In this document: piece by piece, positions 1,174 through 60,100 of the stretch
Numbering within the stretch: position 1 is the first letter of the stretch
How the letters are laid out: the number at the start of each line of letters is the position of its first letter
Source of the DNA: a virus
UHGV virus genome: UHGV-0038498
Length of the DNA: 64,000 nucleotides
Reading direction: 5' to 3' (one strand)
Notes under the pieces: generated by a model
The model's database searches: none
Told to the model about the DNA's origin: nothing
The model's input: the letters and a program-made list of their open reading frames with translations, nothing else
Translations under genes and position numbers: made by a program

Positions 1174-3870
1174 ATGAAAGAATTTTATATCTCTATCGAA
1201 ACAGTCGGAAATAACATTGTTGAGCGCTATATTGATGAAAACGGAAAGGAACGTACTCGTGAAGTAGAATATCTTCCGACTATGTTTAGGCATTGTAAGG
1301 AAGAGTCAAAATACAAAGACATTTATGGTAAAAATTGCGCTCCTCAAAAATTTCCATCAATGAAAGATGCACGAGACTGGATGAAGCGAATGGAAGACAT
1401 CGGTCTCGAAGCTCTCGGTATGAACGATTTTAAACTCGCTTACATCAGTGATACATATGGTTCAGAAATTGTTTATGACCGAAAATTTGTTCGTGTAGCT
1501 AACTGTGACATTGAGGTTACTGGTGATAAATTTCCTGACCCAATGAAAGCAGAATATGAAATTGATGCTATCACTCATTATGATTCAATTGACGACCGTT
1601 TTTACGTCTTTGACTTGTTGAATTCAATGTACGGTTCAGTATCAAAATGGGATGCAAAGTTAGCTGCTAAGCTTGACTGCGAAGGTGGTGATGAAGTTCC
1701 TCAAGAAATTCTTGACCGAGTAATTTATATGCCATTTGATAATGAGCGTGATATGCTCATGGAATATATTAATCTCTGGGAACAGAAACGACCTGCTATT
1801 TTTACCGGTTGGAATATTGAGGGATTTGACGTTCCGTATATCATGAATCGCGTTAAAATGGTTCTCGGCGAACGCAGTATGAAACGCTTCTCTCCAATCG
1901 GTCGAGTAAAATCTAAACTAATTCAAAATATGTACGGTAGCAAAGAAATTTATTCTATTGATGGCGTATCTATTCTTGATTATTTAGATTTGTACAAGAA
2001 ATTCGCATTTACTAATTTGCCATCATTCTCTTTGGAATCAGTTGCTCAACATGAAACCAAAAAAGGTAAATTACCGTACGATGGTCCTATTAATAAACTT
2101 CGTGAGACTAATCATCAACGATACATTAGTTATAACATCATTGACGTAGAATCAGTTCAAGCAATTGATAAAATTCGTGGGTTTATCGATCTAGTTTTAA
2201 GTATGTCCTATTACGCTAAAATGCCTTTTTCTGGTGTAATGAGTCCTATTAAAACTTGGGATGCTATTATTTTTAACTCACTGAAAGGTGAACATAGGGT
2301 TATTCCTCAACAAGGTTCGCACGTTAAACAGAGTTTTCCAGGTGCATTTGTGTTTGAACCTAAACCGATTGCTCGTCGATACATTATGAGTTTTGACTTG
2401 ACGTCTCTGTATCCTAGCATTATTCGCCAGGTTAACATTAGTCCTGAGACTATTCGCGGGCAGTTTAAAGTTCATCCAATTCATGAATATATCGCAGGAA
2501 CAGCTCCTAAGCCAAGTGATGAATATTCTTGCTCTCCGAATGGATGGATGTATGATAAGCACCAAGAAGGTATCATTCCAAAGGAAATCGCTAAAGTATT
2601 TTTCCAGCGTAAAGATTGGAAAAAGAAAATGTTCGCGGAAGAAATGAATGCCGAAGCTATTAAAAAGATTATTATGAAAGGTGCAGGGTCTTGCTCAACT
2701 AAACCAGAAGTTGAACGATATGTTAAGTTCAGTGATGATTTCTTAAACGAATTATCGAATTACACCGAATCTGTTCTTAATAGTCTGATCGAAGAATGTG
2801 AAAAAGCTGCTACGCTTGCTAACACAAATCAGCTGAACCGTAAAATTCTTATTAACAGTCTTTATGGTGCTCTTGGTAATATTCATTTCCGTTACTATGA
2901 TTTGCGAAATGCTACTGCTATCACAATTTTCGGTCAAGTCGGTATTCAGTGGATTGCTCGTAAAATTAATGAATATCTGAATAAAGTATGTGGAACTAAT
3001 GGTGAAGATTTCATCGCAGCAGGTGATACTGATTCGGTATATGTTTGTGTAGATAAAGTTATTGAAAAAGTAGGTCTTGACCGCTTTAAAGAACAAAATG
3101 ATTTAGTTGAATTCATGAATCAGTTTGGTAAGAAAAAGATGGAACCTATGATTGATGTTGCATATCGTGAGTTATGTGATTATATGAATAACCGCGAGCA
3201 TCTGATGCATATGGACCGTGAAGCTATTTCTTGCCCTCCGCTTGGTTCAAAGGGTGTTGGTGGATTTTGGAAAGCGAAAAAACGTTATGCTCTGAACGTT
3301 TATGATATGGAAGATAAGCGATTTGCCGAACCGCATCTAAAAATTATGGGTATGGAAACTCAACAGAGTTCAACACCAAAAGCAGTACAAGAAGCTCTCG
3401 AAGAAAGTATTCGTCGTATTCTTCAGGAAGGTGAAGAGTCTGTCCAAGAATACTACAAGAACTTTGAGAAAGAATATCGTCAACTTGACTATAAAGTTAT
3501 TGCTGAAGTAAAAACTGCGAACGATATAGCGAAATATGACGATAAAGGTTGGCCAGGATTTAAATGTCCGTTCCATATTCGCGGTGTGCTAACTTATCGT
3601 CGAGCTGTTAACGGTTTAGGTGTAGCTCCAATTTTGGATGGAAATAAGGTAATGGTTCTTCCATTACGTGAAGGAAATCCATTTGGTGACAAGTGCATTG
3701 CTTGGCCATCAGGCACAGAACTTCCAAAAGAAATTCGTTCTGATGTACTGTCTTGGATTGACTACTCAACTTTGTTCCAAAAATCGTTTGTTAAACCGCT
3801 TGCGGGTATGTGTGAATCGGCGGGTATGGACTATGAGGAAAAAGCTTCGTTAGACTTCCTGTTTGGCTGA
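1174..3870 (+). CDS. 43: DNA polymerase gp43 (family B, with 3'-5' exonuclease)
   Basis: 898 aa ORF MKEFYISIETVGNNIVERYIDENGKERTREVEYLPTMFRHCKEESKYKDIYGKNCAPQKF...; same length and near-identical sequence to T4 gp43; polymerase motifs (e.g. YGDTDS-like region ...AAGDTDSVYVC...). Confidence 0.96.
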   Translation: MKEFYISIETVGNNIVERYIDENGKERTREVEYLPTMFRHCKEESKYKDIYGKNCAPQKFPSMKDARDWMKRMEDIGLEALGMNDFKLAYISDTYGSEIVYDRKFVRVANCDIEVTGDKFPDPMKAEYEIDAITHYDSIDDRFYVFDLLNSMYGSVSKWDAKLAAKLDCEGGDEVPQEILDRVIYMPFDNERDMLMEYINLWEQKRPAIFTGWNIEGFDVPYIMNRVKMVLGERSMKRFSPIGRVKSKLIQNMYGSKEIYSIDGVSILDYLDLYKKFAFTNLPSFSLESVAQHETKKGKLPYDGPINKLRETNHQRYISYNIIDVESVQAIDKIRGFIDLVLSMSYYAKMPFSGVMSPIKTWDAIIFNSLKGEHRVIPQQGSHVKQSFPGAFVFEPKPIARRYIMSFDLTSLYPSIIRQVNISPETIRGQFKVHPIHEYIAGTAPKPSDEYSCSPNGWMYDKHQEGIIPKEIAKVFFQRKDWKKKMFAEEMNAEAIKKIIMKGAGSCSTKPEVERYVKFSDDFLNELSNYTESVLNSLIEECEKAATLANTNQLNRKILINSLYGALGNIHFRYYDLRNATAITIFGQVGIQWIARKINEYLNKVCGTNGEDFIAAGDTDSVYVCVDKVIEKVGLDRFKEQNDLVEFMNQFGKKKMEPMIDVAYRELCDYMNNREHLMHMDREAISCPPLGSKGVGGFWKAKKRYALNVYDMEDKRFAEPHLKIMGMETQQSSTPKAVQEALEESIRRILQEGEESVQEYYKNFEKEYRQLDYKVIAEVKTANDIAKYDDKGWPGFKCPFHIRGVLTYRRAVNGLGVAPILDGNKVMVLPLREGNPFGDKCIAWPSGTELPKEIRSDVLSWIDYSTLFQKSFVKPLAGMCESAGMDYEEKASLDFLFG

Positions 3871-11373: not shown

Positions 11374-12402
11374 ATGCCATCAATACCTTGGATTGATAAT
11401 GAGTTTGCATACCGTGCATTAGCTCATTTACCTAAATTCGCACAAGTAAATAATAGTTCAACTTTTAAATTACGGTTTAGATGCCCTGTTTGTGGAGATT
11501 CAAAAACCGACCAAAATAAAGCCCGTGGATGGTATTATGGCGATAATAATGAAGGAAATATTCATTGTTATAACTGTAACTATCATGCACCAATCGGAAT
11601 ATATTTAAAGGAGTTTGAACCTGATTTATATCGTGAGTATATCTTTGAAATAAGAAAAGAAAAAGGTAAAAGTCGTCCAATAGAAAAACCTAAAGAACTT
11701 CCTAAACAACCTGAGAAGAAAATAATTAAATCTCTTCCGTCATGCATTAGATTAGATAAACTGGCGGAAGACCATCCAATTATAAAATATGTAAAAGCTC
11801 GTTGTATTCCAAAGGATAAATGGAAATATCTTTGGTTTACAACCGAATGGCCTAAATTAGTTAATAGTATAGCGCCAGGAACATATAAAAAGGAAATACC
11901 TGAGCCTCGTCTTGTTATTCCAATTTATAATGCTAACGGAAAAGCTGAGTCTTTTCAAGGACGTGCATTAAAGAAAGATGCTCCTCAAAAATATATCACC
12001 ATCAAAGCTTATCCTGAGGCAACAAAAATTTATGGAGTTGAACGAGTCAAAGATGGTGATGTATATGTTCTAGAAGGACCTATAGATTCACTTTTTATTG
12101 AAAATGGTATAGCTATTACGGGCGGTCAATTAGACCTAGAAATTGTTCCATTTAAAGATAGACGTGTGTGGGTTTTAGATAATGAACCTCGTCACCCTGA
12201 CACTATTAAACGAATGACTAAATTGGTTGATGCAGGAGAAAGGGTTATGTTTTGGGACAAATCTCCCTGGAAATCAAAGGATGTTAATGATATGATTAGA
12301 AAGGAAGGTGCAACCCCTGAACAAATTATGGAATATATGAAAAATAATATTGCCCAAGGGTTGATGGCTAAAATGCGGCTATCTAAATATGCTAAGATTT
12401 AA
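11374..12402 (+). CDS. 61: DNA primase gp61
   Basis: 342 aa MPSIPWIDNEFAYRALAHLPKFAQVNNSSTFKLRFRCPVCGDSKTDQNKARGWYYGDNNEGNIHCYNCNYH...; zinc ribbon CxxC..CxxC plus TOPRIM region; T4 gp61 length. Confidence 0.92.
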   Translation: MPSIPWIDNEFAYRALAHLPKFAQVNNSSTFKLRFRCPVCGDSKTDQNKARGWYYGDNNEGNIHCYNCNYHAPIGIYLKEFEPDLYREYIFEIRKEKGKSRPIEKPKELPKQPEKKIIKSLPSCIRLDKLAEDHPIIKYVKARCIPKDKWKYLWFTTEWPKLVNSIAPGTYKKEIPEPRLVIPIYNANGKAESFQGRALKKDAPQKYITIKAYPEATKIYGVERVKDGDVYVLEGPIDSLFIENGIAITGGQLDLEIVPFKDRRVWVLDNEPRHPDTIKRMTKLVDAGERVMFWDKSPWKSKDVNDMIRKEGATPEQIMEYMKNNIAQGLMAKMRLSKYAKI

Positions 12403-12610: not shown

Positions 12611-12636
12611 ATTGCTTTATATATTTATTGTATAAT
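12611..12636 (+). promoter_or_regulatory. Candidate middle promoter for gene 56 (MotA-box-like ATTGCTTTA 12611-12619; extended -10 TGTATAAT 12629-12636)
   Basis: TGCTT box about 18 nt upstream of TATAAT; spacing 1-2 nt off the ideal. Confidence 0.3.
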
Positions 12637-12670: not shown

Positions 12671-13189
12671 ATGGCATACTTTAATGAATGTTCACAACTG
12701 ATCGAAGGCGCTGATAAAGCTCAAAATGAATACTGGGATATTCTCGGTGATGAAAAAGACCCGCTGCAGGTTATGCTTGATATGCAGAAATCTCTGCAGG
12801 TTCGTTTAGCTAAAGATAAACCTGAATATAACCGTCATCCTGATGATTTGGCTACTGCAGGCGAAGTTGTTGATTGGCTGCGTAATCAGAAAGATTATAT
12901 TGATGATGAATTCCGCGAACTACTGACTTCTCTTGGTGGTATGAGCAATGGCGAAAAAGATGCATCTGCTGTATGGAAGCCATGGAAAGCTCAACATGGT
13001 GAACGTCGTGAAACTCTGATTACTGATTTGTCTCCACAAGACCAGTTGGAAATTAAATTCGAAATGATTGATATTCTTCATTTCGTTCTGAACATGTTCC
13101 AAGGTCTCGGTCTTACAGCTGAAGAAATCTTTAAACTTTATTATCTAAAAAATGCCGAAAACTTCGCTCGTCAAGACCGAGGTTATTAA
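12671..13189 (+). CDS. 56: dCTPase / dCTP pyrophosphatase gp56
   Basis: 172 aa from ATG 12671 (MAYFNECSQLIEGADKAQNEYWDILGDEKDPLQVMLDMQKSLQ...EEIFKLYYLKNAENFARQDRGY); matches T4 gp56; the 203 aa track ORF is a 5' extension. Confidence 0.9.
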   Translation: MAYFNECSQLIEGADKAQNEYWDILGDEKDPLQVMLDMQKSLQVRLAKDKPEYNRHPDDLATAGEVVDWLRNQKDYIDDEFRELLTSLGGMSNGEKDASAVWKPWKAQHGERRETLITDLSPQDQLEIKFEMIDILHFVLNMFQGLGLTAEEIFKLYYLKNAENFARQDRGY

Positions 13190-53345: not shown

Positions 53346-54377
<1,032 letters not shown>

Positions 54378-54378
<1 letters not shown>

Positions 54379-55238
54379 TGAAACAATACCAATTTTTAAT
54401 TAAAGATATCCTGGAAAACGGTTATGAAACCGATGACCGAACAGGCACAGGAACAATTGCTTTGTTCGGTACTAAATTACGCTGGGATTTAACTAAAGGT
54501 TTTCCTGCAGTAACGACTAAGAAGCTCGCCTGGAAAGCTTGTATTGCTGAGCTAATATGGTTTTTATCGGGAAGCACGAATGTCAATGATTTACGATTAA
54601 TTCAACATGATTCATTAATTCAAGGTAAAACAGTTTGGGATGAAAATTACGAAAATCAAGCAAAAGATTTAGGATACCATAGCGGTGAACTTGGTCCAAT
54701 TTATGGAAAACAATGGCGCGATTTTGGTGGTGTAGACCAAATTATAGAAGTTGTTGATCGTATTAAAAAACTGCCAAATGATAGGCGTCAAATTGTTTCT
54801 GCATGGAATCCAGCTGAACTTAAATATATGGCATTACCGCCTTGTCATATGTTCTATCAATTTAACGTACGTAATGGCTATTTGGATTTGCAGTGGTATC
54901 AACGTTCGGTAGATGTTTTCCTCGGTCTTCCATTTAATATTGCATCATATGCTACGTTAGTTCATATTGTAGCTAAGATGTGTAATCTTATTCCAGGAGA
55001 TTTGATATTTTCTGGTGGTAATACTCATATCTATATGAATCACGTAGAACAATGTAAAGAACTTTTGCGTCGTGAACCTATGGATTTATGCGAATTACAA
55101 TTAAAATTTCCAGATGAATTTGATGAATGGGACACAGAATCACAGGTATTTTGGTTGAGTCAATTCGCAAAGCCACATAATTTTGTTCTTAACAACTACG
55201 TATCTCACCCGCCAATTAAAGGAAAGATGGCGGTGTAA
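54378..55238 (+). CDS. td: Thymidylate synthase, intron-free
   Basis: 286 aa from ATG 54378 (MKQYQFLIKDILENGYETDDRTGTGTIALFGTKLRWDLTKGFPAVTTKKLAWKACIAELIWFLSGSTN...); catalytic Cys in ALPPCH; single uninterrupted frame. Confidence 0.92.
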
Positions 55239-55525: not shown

Positions 55526-55805
55526 ATATAAATCCGACTTTGATGTTAATATTCACCGCGGTACATTTTGGGGAAATTACGTCGGTAAAGATGCTGGCAG
55601 CCGGGAGGCTGCCATTGAATTATTCAAAAAAGATTTTATACGTCGAATTAAATCCGGAGAAATAACTAAAGCACATTTAGAGCCTTTACGTGGAATGAGG
55701 CTAGGATGCACATGTAAACCAAAGCCGTGTCATGGTGATATAATAGCTCATATAGTTAACCGATTGTTTAAAGACGATTTTCAAGTTGAGGACTTATGCA
55801 ATTAA
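55479..55805 (+). CDS. Hypothetical Cys/His-containing protein overlapping both neighbours; start uncertain
   Basis: 108 aa ORF; ...[20 protein letters not shown]... Confidence 0.4.
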
Positions 55806-58060
55806 TTAATGTTATCAAAAGTAGTGGTGTTTCTCAGAGCTTTGACCCGCAAAAAATTATTAAAGTTTTATCTTGGGCAGCTGAAGGAACATCTGTAGAT
55901 CCTTATGAATTATATGAAAATATTAAATCATATCTCCGTGATGGAATGACAACTGATGACATTCAGACTATTGTCATTAAGGCTGCTGCGAATTCTATTT
56001 CAGTTGAAGAGCCTGATTATCAATACGTAGCTGCACGCTGTTTAATGTTTGCTCTTCGTAAGCATGTTTATGGGCAGTATGAACCACGTTCATTTATTGA
56101 CCATATTTCTTACTGTGTAAATGAAGGTAAATATGACCCTGAATTGTTGTCAAAATATTCTGCCGAAGAAATTACATTTTTAGAATCAAAAATTAAGCAC
56201 GAGCGGGATATGGAATTTACTTATTCCGGGGCGATGCAATTAAAAGAAAAATATCTAGTTAAAGATAAAACCACTGGTCAAATTTATGAAACTCCGCAGT
56301 TTGCATTTATGACTATTGGAATGGCATTACATCAAGATGAACCTGTTGATAGATTAAAACATGTTATTCGTTTTTATGAAGCAGTATCTACTCGACAGAT
56401 TTCATTACCAACTCCTATTATGGCTGGTTGCCGTACTCCAACTCGGCAGTTTAGTTCATGCGTTGTTATTGAAGCAGGTGATTCATTAAAGTCTATCAAT
56501 AAGGCTTCCGCTTCAATTGTTGAATATATCTCCAAACGCGCTGGAATTGGTATTAACGTTGGTATGATTCGTGCCGAAGGTTCTAAGATTGGCACAGGTG
56601 AAGTGCGTCATACTGGCGTTATTCCTTTTTGGAAACATTTTCAGACTGCTGTTAAATCATGTTCACAAGGCGGAATTCGTGGCGGCGCTGCTACTGCTTA
56701 TTATCCTATTTGGCATTTGGAAGTTGAAAATCTTCTCGTTTTGAAAAATAACAAAGGCGTAGAAGAAAACCGCATCCGTCATATGGATTACGGTGTTCAA
56801 CTGAATGACCTAATGATGGAACGATTCGGAAAGAATGATTACATTACTTTGTTCAGTCCGCATGAAATGGGTGGCGAACTTTATTATTCTTATTTTAAAG
56901 ACCAAGACCGTTTCCGTGAATTATACGAAGCCGCAGAAAAAGACCCTAATATTCGTAAAAAGCGTATTAAAGCCCGTGAACTGTTTGAATTGCTCATGAC
57001 TGAACGCTCAGGAACAGCAAGGATTTATGTGCAGTTCATTGATAATACGAATAACTATACGCCATTTATTCGTGAAAAGGCACCTATTCGTCAGAGTAAC
57101 TTGTGTTGTGAAATTGCTATTCCAACAAATGACGTGAATAGTCCTGATGCTGAAATTGGATTGTGTACGTTATCTGCATTTGTGTTAGATAACTTTGATT
57201 GGCAAGACCAAGATAAAATTAACGAATTGGCAGAAGTCCAAGTTCGTGCTCTTGATAATCTTTTGGATTACCAAGGATATCCAGTTCCAGAAGCTTTAAA
57301 AGCTAAAAAGCGTCGAAACCTCGGTGTTGGTGTGACGAACTATGCAGCTTGGCTGGCAAGTAATTTTGCTTCTTATGAAGATGCTAACGATTTAACACAC
57401 GAACTATTTGAGAGATTACAGTATGGACTCATTAAAGCATCCATTAAGCTCGCCAAAGAAAAAGGACCTTGCGAATATTATTCAGACACTCGTTGGTCTC
57501 GAGGCGAATTACCTATCGACTGGTACAATAAAAAGATTGACCAAATCGCAGCTCCAAAATACGTTTGTGACTGGTCGTCGCTGCGGGAAGACCTTAAGCT
57601 CTTTGGCATCCGTAATAGCACATTATCAGCACTTATGCCATGTGAGTCATCTTCCCAAGTTTCTAACAGTACAAACGGTATCGAGCCTCCACGTGGACCA
57701 GTCTCTGTTAAAGAATCAAAAGAGGGTTCCTTTAATCAAGTCGTGCCCAATATTGAGCATAACATAGACCTCTATGATTATACGTGGAAATTAGCTAAGA
57801 AAGGTAATAAACCTTATCTTACGCAAGTAGCTATTATGTTGAAATGGGTATGTCAATCAGCTTCAGCGAATACATATTATGACCCGCAGATTTTTCCAAA
57901 AGGAAAGGTTCCAATGTCAATAATGATTGATGACCTTTTGTATTTTTGGTATTTTGGCGGAAAAAATTTCTATTATCATAATACACGTGACGGTTCTGGT
58001 ACTGATGATTATGAAATAGAAACTCCAAAAGCTGAAGATTGTTCATCCTGTAAATTATGA
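55796..58060 (+). CDS. nrdA: Aerobic ribonucleotide reductase large subunit NrdA
   Basis: 754 aa [44 protein letters not shown]...; T4 NrdA length and sequence. Confidence 0.95.
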   Translation: MQLINVIKSSGVSQSFDPQKIIKVLSWAAEGTSVDPYELYENIKSYLRDGMTTDDIQTIVIKAAANSISVEEPDYQYVAARCLMFALRKHVYGQYEPRSFIDHISYCVNEGKYDPELLSKYSAEEITFLESKIKHERDMEFTYSGAMQLKEKYLVKDKTTGQIYETPQFAFMTIGMALHQDEPVDRLKHVIRFYEAVSTRQISLPTPIMAGCRTPTRQFSSCVVIEAGDSLKSINKASASIVEYISKRAGIGINVGMIRAEGSKIGTGEVRHTGVIPFWKHFQTAVKSCSQGGIRGGAATAYYPIWHLEVENLLVLKNNKGVEENRIRHMDYGVQLNDLMMERFGKNDYITLFSPHEMGGELYYSYFKDQDRFRELYEAAEKDPNIRKKRIKARELFELLMTERSGTARIYVQFIDNTNNYTPFIREKAPIRQSNLCCEIAIPTNDVNSPDAEIGLCTLSAFVLDNFDWQDQDKINELAEVQVRALDNLLDYQGYPVPEALKAKKRRNLGVGVTNYAAWLASNFASYEDANDLTHELFERLQYGLIKASIKLAKEKGPCEYYSDTRWSRGELPIDWYNKKIDQIAAPKYVCDWSSLREDLKLFGIRNSTLSALMPCESSSQVSNSTNGIEPPRGPVSVKESKEGSFNQVVPNIEHNIDLYDYTWKLAKKGNKPYLTQVAIMLKWVCQSASANTYYDPQIFPKGKVPMSIMIDDLLYFWYFGGKNFYYHNTRDGSGTDDYEIETPKAEDCSSCKL

Positions 58061-58103
58061 TATAATTTGACTCACGGACGAGTCACCAACAACGAGAAAT
58101 AAT

Positions 58104-58895
58104 ATGAAAGACCTACCTGCCATAACATATCCAGGTGCAAAACATAAGTATATGCCATTTATTAGACAATTTTCAAACCGCTTTGACGATAAGCCTGTTT
58201 TGGATGCTTTTTGTGGTGGTCTTGGATTTTCTATGAATTGTCAGAGAGATGTTATATGTAATGATATTAATACTCCTCTTATAGATATGTATAACAAGAT
58301 GAAATTATCTTCAATTAATGATATAGTTCAAATTATTGAAGACTTTAATTTGAATGACAAAGATTCAGCACCTTTTTATAATCTGTCAAAAGAATACGAT
58401 AAAACCAAAAACGGATTATATCTTTATGTTTTACATTTATTTTCATTCAGTTCGTTAATCCGATTTTCTAGTAATGGAAATTATAACGCGGCTTTCGCCA
58501 ATAGAGCCAAGTATTCCAGAACTTCTTTTAACAAGTCTCAACAGGATAAATTTTCTGAATTTAAAAATAGACAGCACCGATTTACATTTAGTAATAAATC
58601 ATTCAGAGATTTGGATTTTGAAAACAAAAATTTATTCATTGACCCACCATATCTTTCTACTAAATTTAAATATTCAGGCTGGGAAGAAAAGGATGAATTA
58701 GAATTATTAGACAAAATTAAACAATCAAAGTCTAAATTTATTATCACTAATAATCTATCAGACGATATTAACAATTATATTTTAAAAGATTGGGCACTTT
58801 CTAATAATTTCAAAATTGAATATTTTGAAACCATGTATAGGAAGCAAAAGAAAGGTGCATCATTTCAGACTGAAGTGCTTATACACAATATGTGA
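58104..58895 (+). CDS. Dam-family N6-adenine DNA methyltransferase (divergent), in the nrdA-nrdB gap
   Basis: 263 aa; motifs in Dam order: YPGAK (cf. WAGGK), DAFCGGLGFS (AdoMet motif I), NDINTPLIDMY, LYLYVLH, FIDPPY (catalytic DPPY); own SD (AACGAGAAATAAT). Confidence 0.7.
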   Translation: MKDLPAITYPGAKHKYMPFIRQFSNRFDDKPVLDAFCGGLGFSMNCQRDVICNDINTPLIDMYNKMKLSSINDIVQIIEDFNLNDKDSAPFYNLSKEYDKTKNGLYLYVLHLFSFSSLIRFSSNGNYNAAFANRAKYSRTSFNKSQQDKFSEFKNRQHRFTFSNKSFRDLDFENKNLFIDPPYLSTKFKYSGWEEKDELELLDKIKQSKSKFIITNNLSDDINNYILKDWALSNNFKIEYFETMYRKQKKGASFQTEVLIHNM

Positions 58896-58930
58896 TTAAA
58901 TAATTTAAATCTATAATAAGCGAGAATAAT

Positions 58931-60100
58931 ATGTCTACAGTTTTTAATACAAATCCAGTTGATGTTTTAAAAGAACCTATGTTCTTCGGTTCAGGTCTTG
59001 GTATTGCGCGTTATGATATTCAACGCCATAAAGTTTTTGAAGATTTAACCGAAAAGCAATTATCATTTTTCTGGCGTCCTGAAGAAGTAAACTTAATGAT
59101 GGATGCTGCGCAATTTAACAAGCTTCCTCAGTATCAGCAAGATATTTTTACTAATAACTTGAAGTATCAATCACTTCTAGATAGCATTCAGGGTCGTGCA
59201 CCGTCTGCTGTACTTATGTCGTTAATTTCAGACCCAAGTCTTGATACATGGGTTGCTACATGGACTTTTAGTGAAACTATTCACAGCCGTTCATATACTC
59301 ATATCATGCGAAATCTTTATACTGATCCGTCAAAGGTATTTGATGAGATTGTATTAGATAAAGCTATTATGAAACGTGCCGAGTCCATTGGTCGCTATTA
59401 CGATGATGTTCTAGTTAAGACTCGTGAATACCAAAACGCGGTTGAAGATTATGAAGGAATTTTATCAGAAGGATTTCGTAAAGACGAATTAGGCAAAGTT
59501 GTTGAATGTACTAAACGAGCACTAATGAAATCTCTTTATCTTTGCCTTCATGTAATCAACGCGTTGGAAGCTATTCGTTTTTATGTATCTTTCGCATGTA
59601 CCTTTAACTTCCATAAGAACATGGAAATCATGGAAGGTAATGCCAAGATTATGAAGTTCATTGCACGTGATGAGCAGCTTCACCTTAAAGGCACTCAATA
59701 TATTATTCGTCAACTTCAACTTGGCACTGATGGCGATGAATGGGTTAAAATTGCTCAAGAGTGTGAACAAGAAGCAGTTGATATTTTCATGGAAGTTAAC
59801 CGTCAAGAAAAAGACTGGGCAGTTCATTTATTTAAAGATGGCGATGTTCCTGGATTAAATACAAATAGCATGTGGAGCTTTATTGATTACTTAACTGTAT
59901 CTCGTATGAAACAGTGCGGTCTTCCATGCCCAATTACTGATGCTCCGGTTAAACATCCGTATCCTTGGATTCGTGAATATCTTAATTCTGATAATGTTCA
60001 ATCCGCGCCACAAGAAGTAGAACTGTCATCTTACCTTGTAGCACAGATTGATAATGATGTTGATGATAAAGTTATGATGGGTTTTAAAAAATATTTTTAA
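58931..60100 (+). CDS. nrdB: Aerobic ribonucleotide reductase small subunit NrdB, intron-free
   Basis: 389 aa MSTVFNTNPVDVLKEPMFFGSGLGIARYDIQRHKVFEDLTEKQLSFFWRPEEVN...; single uninterrupted frame. Confidence 0.92.
   Translation: MSTVFNTNPVDVLKEPMFFGSGLGIARYDIQRHKVFEDLTEKQLSFFWRPEEVNLMMDAAQFNKLPQYQQDIFTNNLKYQSLLDSIQGRAPSAVLMSLISDPSLDTWVATWTFSETIHSRSYTHIMRNLYTDPSKVFDEIVLDKAIMKRAESIGRYYDDVLVKTREYQNAVEDYEGILSEGFRKDELGKVVECTKRALMKSLYLCLHVINALEAIRFYVSFACTFNFHKNMEIMEGNAKIMKFIARDEQLHLKGTQYIIRQLQLGTDGDEWVKIAQECEQEAVDIFMEVNRQEKDWAVHLFKDGDVPGLNTNSMWSFIDYLTVSRMKQCGLPCPITDAPVKHPYPWIREYLNSDNVQSAPQEVELSSYLVAQIDNDVDDKVMMGFKKYF

What the first reader, a model, noticed from the sequence alone, without database searches (positions are those of the whole stretch)
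58061..58930. Divergent Dam-family DNA adenine methyltransferase inserted in the nrdA-nrdB intergenic hot spot
The 263 aa ORF 58104..58895 has the hallmarks of the Dam / T4 Dam group of N6-adenine methyltransferases in the right order: YPGAK near the N-terminus (cf. Dam WAGGK), AdoMet motif I DAFCGGLGFS, NDINTPLIDMY, LYLYVLH and the catalytic FIDPPY. It sits between the two ribonucleotide reductase genes, a position that in T4 is occupied by the mobE homing endonuclease (and where T4 nrdB carries an intron); here both are absent and a methyltransferase is present instead. No methyltransferase ORF exists in the 61-56 interval where I recall T4 dam to lie. Neighbouring genes are nearly identical to T4 whereas this protein appears only distantly related to the T4 Dam sequence I remember. 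The gene is very AT-rich and uses AGA/AGG for 7 of 10 Arg codons; an inverted repeat TGACTC...GAGTCA lies just upstream. Together this suggests a horizontally acquired or relocated anti-restriction methyltransferase whose target sequence may not be GATC.
Basis: partly seen in the sequence, partly recalled or inferred. Interest (0 to 1): 0.7.

Follow-up and report, generated by a model that had tools for sequence, protein, structure and literature searches.

The report
Rare second Dam methylase in T4-like phage
A T4-like phage that lacks the usual T4 dam gene carries, between its two ribonucleotide reductase genes, a rare and divergent Dam-type DNA adenine methyltransferase gene that is swapped as a compact cassette among T4-like phages; it is a new branch of a well-known enzyme family rather than a new kind of system.

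Summary
ORF 58104..58895 (263 aa) is an intact D12/alpha-class N6-adenine DNA methyltransferase. It matches Pfam PF02086 at E=1.8e-23. Its closest solved relative is T4 Dam (33-34% identity, E~2e-36), and an AlphaFold model (pLDDT 91.6) matches T4 Dam at TM 0.85.

It lies between nrdA and nrdB, where T4 has mobE and nrdB.1. The canonical dam slot between genes 61 and 56 is empty in this window.

The gene is rare. It occurs in 9 of 50,697 phage records and a few metagenome contigs, always in this slot, across Tequatrovirus, Gelderlandvirus, Marfavirus and a phage whose flanks match Dhakavirus IME08. It is under purifying selection (dN/dS 0.07-0.17). Identity breaks at the gene borders show it is exchanged laterally as a cassette, bounded by a duplicated ~20-nt nrdB leader.

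- The upstream TATAAT and hairpin belong to the slot, since empty sites have them too.
- The gene is not a relocated T4 dam. One phage, BGP, carries both genes.
- A dam-less 61-56 junction is common in this genus.

In this allele most GATC-reading residues are conserved (R120, L118, F115, R134; A130 replaces Pro), so GATC is the likeliest target. That is untested. A sister allele has R120K.

Verdict: a new member of a known kind, of modest interest.

The parts
58104..58895 (+). Coding sequence of the 263-aa orphan Dam-family (D12, alpha-class) N6-adenine DNA methyltransferase, allele group A.
   Evidence: Pfam PF02086 at E=1.8e-23 and 84 bits against a cut-off of 22. PHROG 56, DNA methyltransferase, at 4e-35. 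T4 Dam structures 1YFJ/1Q0S at E~2e-36. AF2 model with pLDDT 91.6, and Foldseek to T4Dam with TM 0.85. dN/dS between alleles is 0.07-0.17.
58061..58066 (+). TATAAT hexamer immediately after the nrdA stop codon. It is probably the -10 element of the nrdB middle promoter. It is native to the slot and is not part of the insert.
   Evidence: It is conserved in filled and empty spacers of five genera. [quoted passage not shown] Its role as a promoter here is inferred.
58068..58085 (+). Conserved hairpin TGACTC-acggac-GAGTCA. It is native to the nrdA-nrdB spacer and forms the left border of the cassette.
   Evidence: RNA fold of -7.5 kcal/mol, z = -2.5. Five of seven stem pairs show compensatory double changes across six distinct sequences; 0 of 500 shuffles reach the covariation score and the slid controls collapse. 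It is present in the empty sites of Shfl2, IME08, STP4-a and Shf125875.
58084..58106 (+). Left copy of the duplicated nrdB translation-initiation leader (caccaacaacgagaaataatATG). It now serves the methyltransferase.
   Evidence: It scores 18 against the 27-nt empty-site leader of IME08. Background leaders in the window have a mean of 7.3, a 95th percentile of 12 and a maximum of 18. Allele-B copies score 22-24.
58896..58933 (+). 3' spacer plus the right copy of the nrdB leader (ttaaataatttaaatctataataagcgagaataatATG). It serves nrdB.
   Evidence: The right copies score 14-23 against the IME08 empty-site leader. All carriers have ATGtct as the nrdB start, whereas empty Tequatrovirus sites have ...aagcggaaaatttATGagc.
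55796..58060 (+). nrdA, the left flanking gene. It provides the homology arm and upstream transcription.
   Evidence: 754-aa ORF. 94-96% nucleotide identity to T4 nrdA.
58931..60100 (+). nrdB, intron-less, the right flanking gene. Codon 42 (59054-59056) is AAG, the type nicked by MobE.
   Evidence: Continuous 389-aa ORF. The codon was read. MobE nicking at codon 42 AAG of mobE-less phages is described in PMC2790892.
12403..12670 (+). The 61-56 spacer, the empty canonical dam site. The junction that replaces about 0.9 kb of T4 sequence lies at 12611-12630.
   Evidence: tblastn places gp61 at 11374-12399 and gp56 at 12671-13186, with no Dam hit there. blastn against T4 shows that T4 locus L002 2827-3725 (dam is 2847-3626) is missing.

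Best explanation
The ORF encodes an active orphan DNA N6-adenine methyltransferase of the Dam (D12, alpha) class. It has no restriction partner. It belongs to a small, separate lineage found only in the nrdA-nrdB slot of T4-like phages.

Expression (inferred). The gene sits downstream of the conserved TATAAT-hairpin element and upstream of nrdB. It should therefore be transcribed before replication together with the nrd genes, both by read-through from nrdA and from the nrdB middle promoter. It is translated from a duplicated copy of the nrdB leader.

Activity (inferred). The protein binds AdoMet through DAFCGGLG and D54. It flips the target adenine into the DPPY pocket. It reads DNA with the beta-hairpin F115-S116-S117-L118-I119-R120...A130...R134. 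Because this hairpin keeps most GATC-reading residues of EcoDam and T4 Dam, the most likely product is G(m6A)TC on the phage's hydroxymethylcytosine DNA. That would do the same job as canonical T4 Dam: protect against restriction systems whose sites overlap GATC.

Mobility (shown). The gene is a compact cassette of ORF, short 3' spacer and duplicated leader. It has moved between T4-like genera. The route is inferred to be homologous recombination in the conserved nrdA and nrdB flanks during co-infection.

Status of each step. Shown: family, fold, motifs, slot, rarity, purifying selection and lateral exchange. Inferred: enzymatic activity, GATC target, timing of expression and anti-restriction role.
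For: Family and fold:
- Pfam PF02086 E=1.8e-23 and PHROG 56.
- phmmer against PDB: T4 Dam 2e-36, EcoDam 3e-6, DpnM 3e-5.
- BLASTP to T4 Dam: 34% identity, E=3e-37.
- AF2 pLDDT 91.6. Foldseek gives T4Dam at TM 0.85 and rmsd down to 2.0 A, and EcoDam at 1e-14.

Catalytic and AdoMet residues G11, K13, G38, D180 and P182 are invariant across 46-47 family members. R120 is nearly invariant in both alignments and N128 in the 46-sequence one.

GATC-reading residues, by alignment to EcoDam and using the roles given in PMC4417163:
- R120 = R124, which contacts Gua of base pair 4.
- L118 = L122, which contacts base pair 3.
- F115 = Y119, the intercalating residue.
- S116 = N120.
- A130 = P134.
- R134 aligns with T4 R130.

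Selection: dN/dS is 0.07-0.17 between alleles.

Distribution: all relatives of at least 75% identity lie in the same nrdA-nrdB slot, in 9 phage records and metagenome contigs L010-L012.

Lateral exchange:
- PhiKpNIH-6 versus L010: nrdA 74.9% but MTase 97.8%, with the jump exactly at the nrdA stop.
- BGP versus CF-SP2: nrdA 80.4% but MTase 91.5%.
- Window versus BGP: nrdA 95.8% but MTase 79.9%.

Leader duplication: the empty site of IME08 equals the left flank plus the right flank of carriers.

No second Dam homologue: the window has none, and the five phages that carry this allele at 98.8-99.6% aa identity each have only one matching place.
Against: - No biochemical or methylome data exist for any member. 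The one paper that analysed nucleosides of two carriers (NR1 and BGP) reports only cytosine modifications and does not mention adenine methylation.
- The protein scores below NCBIfam's curated Dam cut-off (TIGR00571: 92.4 against 114.85 bits). It is only 33% identical to the nearest enzyme of known specificity.
- The Pro that contacts base pair 3 in EcoDam is Ala here.
- BGP keeps both this gene (a different allele) and canonical dam. That is odd if the two are fully redundant, although BGP's close relative Geo has an empty slot, so the acquisition looks recent.
- Promoter use and timing are inferred from a paper on other phages, not measured.
Confidence: 0.65

Rival explanations
1. It is an active orphan adenine methyltransferase with a target other than GATC, for example a relaxed ATC-type or extended site. 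It would then add a new protective modification rather than duplicate Dam.
For: - Only 33% identity to T4 Dam, on an isolated long branch.
- Below the curated Dam-family score.
- The Pro134-equivalent residue is Ala130.
- The recognition hairpin is the most variable stretch within the clade. Allele B has K instead of the near-invariant Arg and I instead of N128, with only 10-11 of 20 hairpin residues identical to allele A.
- BGP carries allele B together with canonical dam.
- PMC4417163 notes that first-base-pair recognition is not conserved in the Dam family, and that relatives such as M.EcoRV read expanded sites.
Against: - The window's allele A keeps R120, L118, the aromatic F115, N128 and R134.
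- The three solved relatives recovered (T4 Dam, EcoDam, DpnM) are all GATC enzymes despite less than 30% mutual identity (own knowledge of these enzymes).
- The position equivalent to Pro134 varies (P, Q, K, S, T) across the T4-Dam-like relatives in alignment A1.
- BGP's co-occurrence involves the other allele and looks recent.
Confidence: 0.2
2. It is simply T4's dam gene moved to a new place, an orthologue displaced from the 61-56 interval into the nrdA-nrdB spacer.
For: - The window lacks dam at 61-56 and has a Dam homologue elsewhere.
- T4 Dam is the best-scoring relative outside the clade.
- Seven of the eight carriers with complete information lack canonical dam.
Against: - Identity to T4 Dam is 33%, whereas neighbouring genes are 94-98% identical to T4.
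- Many other proteins are closer to T4 Dam (42-52%) than this one is.
- In the NJ tree the clade does not group with T4 Dam.
- BGP has both genes intact.
- The dam-less 61-56 junction is common in Tequatrovirus generally. Only about 35-40% of T4-like coliphage records have any Dam homologue. The 7-of-8 figure is therefore close to background.
Confidence: 0.03
3. It is a decaying or functionless passenger gene that hitch-hikes in a recombination hot spot.
For: - Rarity: 9 of 50,697 phage records.
- Canonical T4 dam is dispensable in the laboratory (own knowledge).
- The slot is polymorphic, being empty, holding a mobE-type endonuclease, or holding something else.
Against: - The ORF is full-length in every carrier, with all catalytic motifs invariant.
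- dN/dS is 0.07-0.17 over synonymous divergences up to saturation, comparable to nrdA.
- The gene is retained across several genera.
Confidence: 0.07

Closest known systems
Phage T4 Dam (M.EcoT4Dam; gene dam between genes 61 and 56; PDB 1Q0S, 1YFJ, 1YFL)
   Same: Same fold and domain order (motif X, I, II, recognition hairpin, DPPY) and similar length (263 vs 259 aa). It is the best sequence and structure match. Both are orphan enzymes in a T-even phage, both are AT-rich accessory genes, and each is a clean presence/absence cassette. Most residues of the DNA-reading hairpin are conserved.
   Different: Only 33-34% identical. It lies at a different locus (nrdA-nrdB rather than 61-56). It forms a separate lineage that does not group with T4 Dam in the tree. 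The Pro126 equivalent is Ala, and there is a 5-6 residue insertion after the hairpin (RAKYSRTSF vs RTI). Its target sequence is untested.
E. coli Dam and DpnM (GATC-specific D12-class methyltransferases; PDB 2G1P, 2DPM)
   Same: Same Pfam family and fold (Foldseek E of 1e-14 and 4e-13). The R124, L122 and Y119 equivalents are present.
   Different: 16-18% identity in the structural alignment. The EcoDam equivalog model NF008152 scores 35.6 bits against a cut-off of 441. [quoted passage not shown]
T4 mobE, the free-standing HNH homing endonuclease in the nrdA-nrdB spacer (PMC2790892)
   Same: It occupies the same intergenic slot. It is a compact, promoter-dependent single-gene insertion that is polymorphic among T-even phages and inherited together with its flanks.
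   Different: The methyltransferase has no nuclease domain and therefore no self-driven homing. It lies downstream of the spacer's TATAAT-hairpin instead of replacing it. It is much rarer: about 1% of records against roughly one fifth in an even sample. The window's nrdB has the MobE-susceptible AAG codon 42, so mobE would be expected to displace it in mixed infections (inference).

Membership tests
D12-class (alpha-group) N6-adenine DNA methyltransferases, Pfam PF02086 | Match to the family profile above the curated gathering score, over the full length. | tested here: met
   84 bits against a cut-off of 22, E=1.8e-23, covering residues 9-245 on profile positions 1-251 of 253.
D12-class (alpha-group) N6-adenine DNA methyltransferases, Pfam PF02086 | AdoMet-binding motif I (FxGxG), with the acidic motif II residue, lying N-terminal to the catalytic (D/N)PPY motif IV and separated from it by the recognition domain (alpha order). 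| tested here: met
   DAFCGGLG at 34-41, ND at 53-54 and DPPY at 180-183. G11, K13, G38, D180 and P182 are invariant in 46-47 relatives.
D12-class (alpha-group) N6-adenine DNA methyltransferases, Pfam PF02086 | Rossmann-like methyltransferase fold with an inserted helical/hairpin DNA-recognition domain. | tested here: met
   AF2 model with pLDDT 91.6 and pTM 0.89. The top 24 Foldseek PDB hits are T4Dam, EcoDam and DpnM, with TM 0.70-0.85.
D12-class (alpha-group) N6-adenine DNA methyltransferases, Pfam PF02086 | Transfer of methyl from AdoMet to adenine N6 in DNA. | not testable with these tools
   No biochemical or methylome data were found for any member.
Dam family in the strict sense (GATC-specific; NCBIfam TIGR00571) | Score above the curated cut-off of the Dam subfamily model. 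| tested here: not met
   92.4 bits against a cut-off of 114.85. The alignment is nevertheless full-length, 5-261 on 3-266 of 267.
Dam family in the strict sense (GATC-specific; NCBIfam TIGR00571) | Conservation of the residues that read GATC: EcoDam R124, L122, Y119, N120 and P134, and T4 R130. | tested here: inconclusive
   R120, L118, F115 and R134 are conserved. N120 is replaced by S116, as in T4 S112. P134 is replaced by A130. This is consistent with GATC but not proof.
Dam family in the strict sense (GATC-specific; NCBIfam TIGR00571) | Methylation of the adenine in GATC. | not testable with these tools
   This needs DpnI/DpnII/MboI assays or SMRT/nanopore motif calling.
Orthologue of T4 dam | Position between genes 61 and 56, with high identity matching that of neighbouring genes. 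| tested here: not met
   It lies between nrdA and nrdB, and the 61-56 spacer is empty. Identity is 33%, against 94-98% for the flanking genes. It co-occurs with true dam in BGP.
Restriction-modification system | A cognate restriction endonuclease gene adjacent to the methyltransferase. | tested here: not met
   In every carrier the gene lies directly between nrdA and nrdB with no other ORF in between. It is therefore an orphan methyltransferase.
Free-standing homing endonuclease cassette (mobE, seg type) | Encodes an HNH or GIY-YIG nuclease that cuts the cassette-less allele. | tested here: not met
   The only domain is PF02086, and no nuclease ORF lies within 58061-58930.

The most novel reading that the evidence does not exclude
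The nrdA-nrdB methyltransferases may be a phage-only Dam lineage whose recognition hairpin is diversifying. Allele A has Arg120 and Asn128, while allele B has Lys and Ile. Different alleles would then methylate different sites. T4-like phages would swap them as plug-in anti-restriction cassettes through a fixed docking site formed by the conserved TATAAT-hairpin and the duplicated nrdB leader. On this reading the window's enzyme, or at least its sister allele, has a non-GATC or relaxed specificity.
Probability: 0.2. Interest if true: 0.55.

Novelty: new member of a known kind. Interest (0 to 1): 0.3.

Why it matters
It shows that T4-like phages draw on at least two unrelated-by-descent Dam-type genes. 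Each is a clean plug-in cassette at its own locus. It also shows that the well-studied mobE slot between nrdA and nrdB can hold a DNA-modification gene instead of a homing endonuclease.

For phage therapy and defence-system work, carriers such as ECO07P2, NR1 and T4_ev240 may have adenine-methylated DNA even though they lack the gene people normally look for.

The allele pair that differs at the key specificity arginine offers a small natural experiment on how Dam enzymes change target. None of this overturns current understanding. The enzyme family, the hot spot and accessory-gene flux in T-even phages are all well known.

Tried and rejected
- **Wider searches for the clade.** IMG/VR viral contigs and GTDB genomes returned nothing. 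JGI metagenomes returned only one 31%-identical relative. No bacterial or prophage source could be identified.
- **Representative-library search.** The exhaustive HMMER search of 1.84 billion representatives found only one cluster at 50% identity or above, then a gap to E=4e-28. An NJ tree of 154 sequences gave no informative sister group.
- **Mutual exclusivity with canonical dam.** I rejected this idea. The dam-less 61-56 junction is common and BGP has both genes.
- **Upstream inverted repeat as an insertion scar or terminator.** I rejected this too. It is present in empty sites, it covaries, no T-run follows it, and the terminator scan found none.
- **Sigma-70-like promoter hits inside the ORF.** They number 14 against 8.9 +/- 2.8 expected. 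The best, at 58354-58382, is not conserved in CF-SP2. I treated them as chance matches in AT-rich DNA.
- **Rfam.** No family matched in 57800-59100.
- **Literature.** No paper describes this gene. The Durham-collection paper on NR1 and BGP reports no adenine data. The T4Dam-DNA structure paper (PMC2656680) was not available, so the residue roles come from the EcoDam paper PMC4417163 plus alignment.
- **Tooling.** I re-ran it without that sequence.
Full report
**1. The observation**

ORF 58104..58895 on the + strand runs from ATG to TGA and encodes 263 aa.

The ORF lies 43 nt after the nrdA stop (nrdA 55796..58060) and 35 nt before nrdB (58931..60100). nrdB here is one uninterrupted 389-aa ORF. 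In T4 the same interval holds mobE and nrdB.1, and T4 nrdB carries the I-TevIII intron.

The window is from a Tequatrovirus. The region 57500-59500 is 99.0% identical to Escherichia phage ECO07P2, where the gene is annotated as 'DNA adenine methylase'.

The composition figures check out:
- GC is 28.4%, against 35.6% for the window. That is the second lowest of 74 ORFs.
- AGA/AGG account for 7 of 10 Arg codons, against 16% overall.
- T4's own dam has 27.7% GC and 4 of 7 Arg codons as AGA. This composition is therefore ordinary for T-even accessory genes.

**2. The canonical dam locus**

In the window gp61 ends at 12402 and gp56 starts at 12671. A tblastn of T4 Dam against all 64 kb hits only 58113..58889.

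Compared with T4, about 0.9 kb containing dam is cleanly replaced by 20 bp at 12611-12630. This dam-less junction is not special. RB14, RB27, RB6 and many other Tequatroviruses have it as a single uninterrupted match. Only about 35-40% of T4-like coliphage records contain any Dam homologue (compare the organism counts).

**3. What the protein is**

Sequence evidence:
- Pfam PF02086 (D12-class N6-adenine methyltransferase) matches end to end at E=1.8e-23.
- PHROG 56 matches at 4e-35.
- Among solved structures, T4 Dam is by far the closest at E~2e-36. EcoDam is at 3e-6 and DpnM at 3e-5.
- BLASTP to T4 Dam gives 34% identity.

Structural evidence: an AlphaFold model built on 46 relatives has pLDDT 91.6. 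It superposes on T4Dam-DNA complexes with TM 0.85.

Conserved residues: G11, K13, G38, D180 and P182 are invariant across the family alignments. R120 is nearly invariant in both, and N128 in the 46-sequence alignment.

The protein scores below NCBIfam's curated Dam cut-off, 92.4 against 114.85 bits. 'Divergent' is therefore a fair description.

**4. How isolated the lineage is**

An exhaustive HMMER scan of 1.84 billion representative proteins found one cluster at 50% identity or above. The next hit was at E=4e-28 and 34% identity. Many of the lower hits are 42-52% identical to T4 Dam, so they are closer to T4 Dam than this protein is. In an NJ tree the clade is a long branch with no informative sister and does not group with T4 Dam.

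Relatives of 75-99% identity exist in only nine of 50,697 phage records:
- Tequatrovirus: T4_ev240, 236Ecol005PP, EP02SG, ECO07P2, NR1 and BGP.
- Gelderlandvirus: Salmonella phage CF-SP2.
- fDHCT2, which is unclassified. Its left flank matches Dhakavirus IME08.
- Marfavirus: Klebsiella phage PhiKpNIH-6.

A few metagenome contigs carry it as well. In every case the gene sits between nrdA and nrdB. Searches of IMG/VR, GTDB genomes and JGI metagenomes added no close relatives.

**5. Selection and lateral exchange**

dN/dS between alleles is 0.07-0.17, similar to nrdA. The gene is therefore maintained by selection.

There are three allele groups:
- A: the window and its near-identical relatives.
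- B: BGP, metagenome contig L012, CF-SP2 and fDHCT2.
- C: PhiKpNIH-6 and metagenome contigs L010/L011.

Gene and flanks disagree sharply:

| Pair | nrdA identity | MTase identity |
|---|---|---|
| Window vs BGP | 95.8% | 79.9% |
| BGP vs CF-SP2 | 80.4% | 91.5% |
| PhiKpNIH-6 vs L010 | 74.9% | 97.8% |

In sliding windows the change occurs exactly at the nrdA stop and MTase start. The gene is therefore exchanged laterally among T4-like genera and always lands in the same slot.

**6. Anatomy of the insertion**

The empty spacer of Tequatrovirus Shfl2 reads TGA-tataatttgactcacggacgagtcac-tatctattaactaagcggaaaattt-ATGagc. The window is identical up to ...gagtcac (58086) and then diverges until just inside nrdB, where it reads ATGtct.

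The empty spacer of Dhakavirus IME08 reads ...tataattgactcatggatgagtCACTAACAAATGAGAATAATATGtct. That sequence equals the left flank of the B-type carriers joined to the right flank of all carriers. Both the leader in front of the methyltransferase and the leader in front of nrdB match this 27-nt empty-site leader far better than other gene leaders do. The scores reach 24 and 23, against a background mean of 7.3 and a 95th percentile of 12.

The cassette is thus the ORF plus about 15 nt of 3' spacer, bounded by a duplicated nrdB leader of about 20 nt. Tequatrovirus carriers have the donor-type leader and the ATGtct start. This suggests import from a non-Tequatrovirus background resembling Dhakavirus (inference).

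**7. The upstream 'inverted repeat'**

The TATAAT (58061-58066) and the hairpin (58068-58085) are present in both empty and filled spacers of five genera. Five of seven stem pairs show compensatory double changes among six distinct sequences. No shuffle out of 500 reaches the observed covariation score, and the slid controls collapse. No T-run follows the hairpin and no terminator was predicted.

[quoted passage not shown] I therefore read the element as the promoter -10 plus a 5'-leader hairpin of the nrdB transcript. The methyltransferase has been slotted in behind it as a new first cistron. That reading is an inference.

**8. Likely target**

The EcoDam paper PMC4417163 gives the following roles:
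- R124 reads the Gua of the fourth base pair.
- L122 and P134 contact the third base pair.
- Y119 intercalates.

By alignment the window protein has R120, L118, A130 and F115 at these positions. S116 aligns with N120, as S112 does in T4. R134 aligns with T4 R130. Only the Pro is changed, and that position varies among T4-Dam-like relatives in alignment A1. The three solved relatives are all GATC enzymes. GATC is therefore the most probable target for this allele, at about 0.7 conditional on the enzyme being active.

The recognition hairpin is nevertheless the most variable stretch within the clade. Allele B has Lys in place of R120 and Ile in place of N128. It shares only 10-11 of 20 hairpin residues with allele A, against about 80% overall. 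BGP is the one phage that also has an intact canonical dam, and it carries allele B. Its close relative Geo has an empty slot, so that acquisition looks recent.

**9. Context of the slot**

In an evenly spaced sample of the 826 records that match the flanks, most spacers are empty (span about 1.1-1.2 kb). Roughly one in five holds a mobE-type endonuclease. Only 8 of the 826 records hold the methyltransferase.

The window's nrdB has AAG at codon 42 (59054-59056). This is the form that MobE nicks in mobE-less phages (PMC2790892). In mixed infections mobE would be expected to overwrite the cassette. That could help explain its rarity (inference).

**10. Verdict**

These parts of the interpretation are not supported:
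- That the gene is a relocated dam.
- That the missing canonical dam is meaningful.
- That the inverted repeat marks the insertion.
- That the target is probably not GATC, although this last point cannot be settled without experiments.

The gene is already annotated as a DNA adenine methylase in several GenBank records. I found no paper that discusses it. It is a new member of a known kind, of modest interest. The hairpin-divergent sister allele is the most promising lead.

Noticed in passing
window 58061-58085: A TATAAT hexamer followed by a 6-7 bp hairpin with a YGGA-type loop is conserved in the nrdA-nrdB spacer of five T4-like genera, whether or not anything is inserted. Five of seven stem pairs show compensatory double changes. 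It is probably the nrdB middle-promoter -10 plus a 5' leader hairpin.
   Followed up: partly
window 1-64000; L017 (T4 119000-168903): GATC is by far the most depleted 4-bp palindrome. Observed/expected is 0.29 in the window (62 against 212) and 0.30 in T4. The next lowest palindrome is about 0.66-0.72. The depletion is lineage-wide and does not depend on which dam gene a phage carries.
   Followed up: partly
L004 4001-4792 (vB_Eco_BGP), L005 (CF-SP2), L006 (fDHCT2), P0003: Allele B of the methyltransferase has Lys in place of the near-invariant specificity arginine (window R120, EcoDam R124) and Ile in place of N128. Its recognition hairpin is only about 50% identical to allele A. BGP carries this allele together with an intact canonical dam (L009 2964-3743).
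   Followed up: partly
window 12611-12630: The canonical T4 dam is itself a clean presence/absence cassette. About 0.9 kb of T4 (dam plus about 100 bp upstream) is replaced here by 20 bp, and the same dam-less junction is common in Tequatrovirus.
   Followed up: yes
window 59054-59056 (nrdB codon 42): The codon is AAG. According to PMC2790892 this is the form nicked by the MobE homing endonuclease in mobE-less phages. The methyltransferase cassette about 125 nt upstream should therefore be prone to replacement by mobE in mixed infections.
   Followed up: no
window 54172-54378: A 68-aa ORF sits between frd and td, where the two genes overlap in T4. A 68-aa ORF also occupies this position in metagenome contig L011. 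In addition, td (54378-55238) and nrdB lack the group I introns present in T4.
   Followed up: no
window 58354-58382: An 11-of-12 match to the sigma-70 consensus (ATGACA, 17 nt, TATAAT) lies inside the methyltransferase ORF on the + strand. It is not conserved in the CF-SP2 allele and is probably a chance match in AT-rich DNA.
   Followed up: partly
L009 2404-2964 (vB_Eco_BGP): In BGP a 186-aa ORF lies immediately upstream of canonical dam. It is probably the 'restriction enzyme-like gene' that PMC13390438 reports only in Geo, EL and BGP, though the paper gives no coordinates. I did not examine it here.
   Followed up: no
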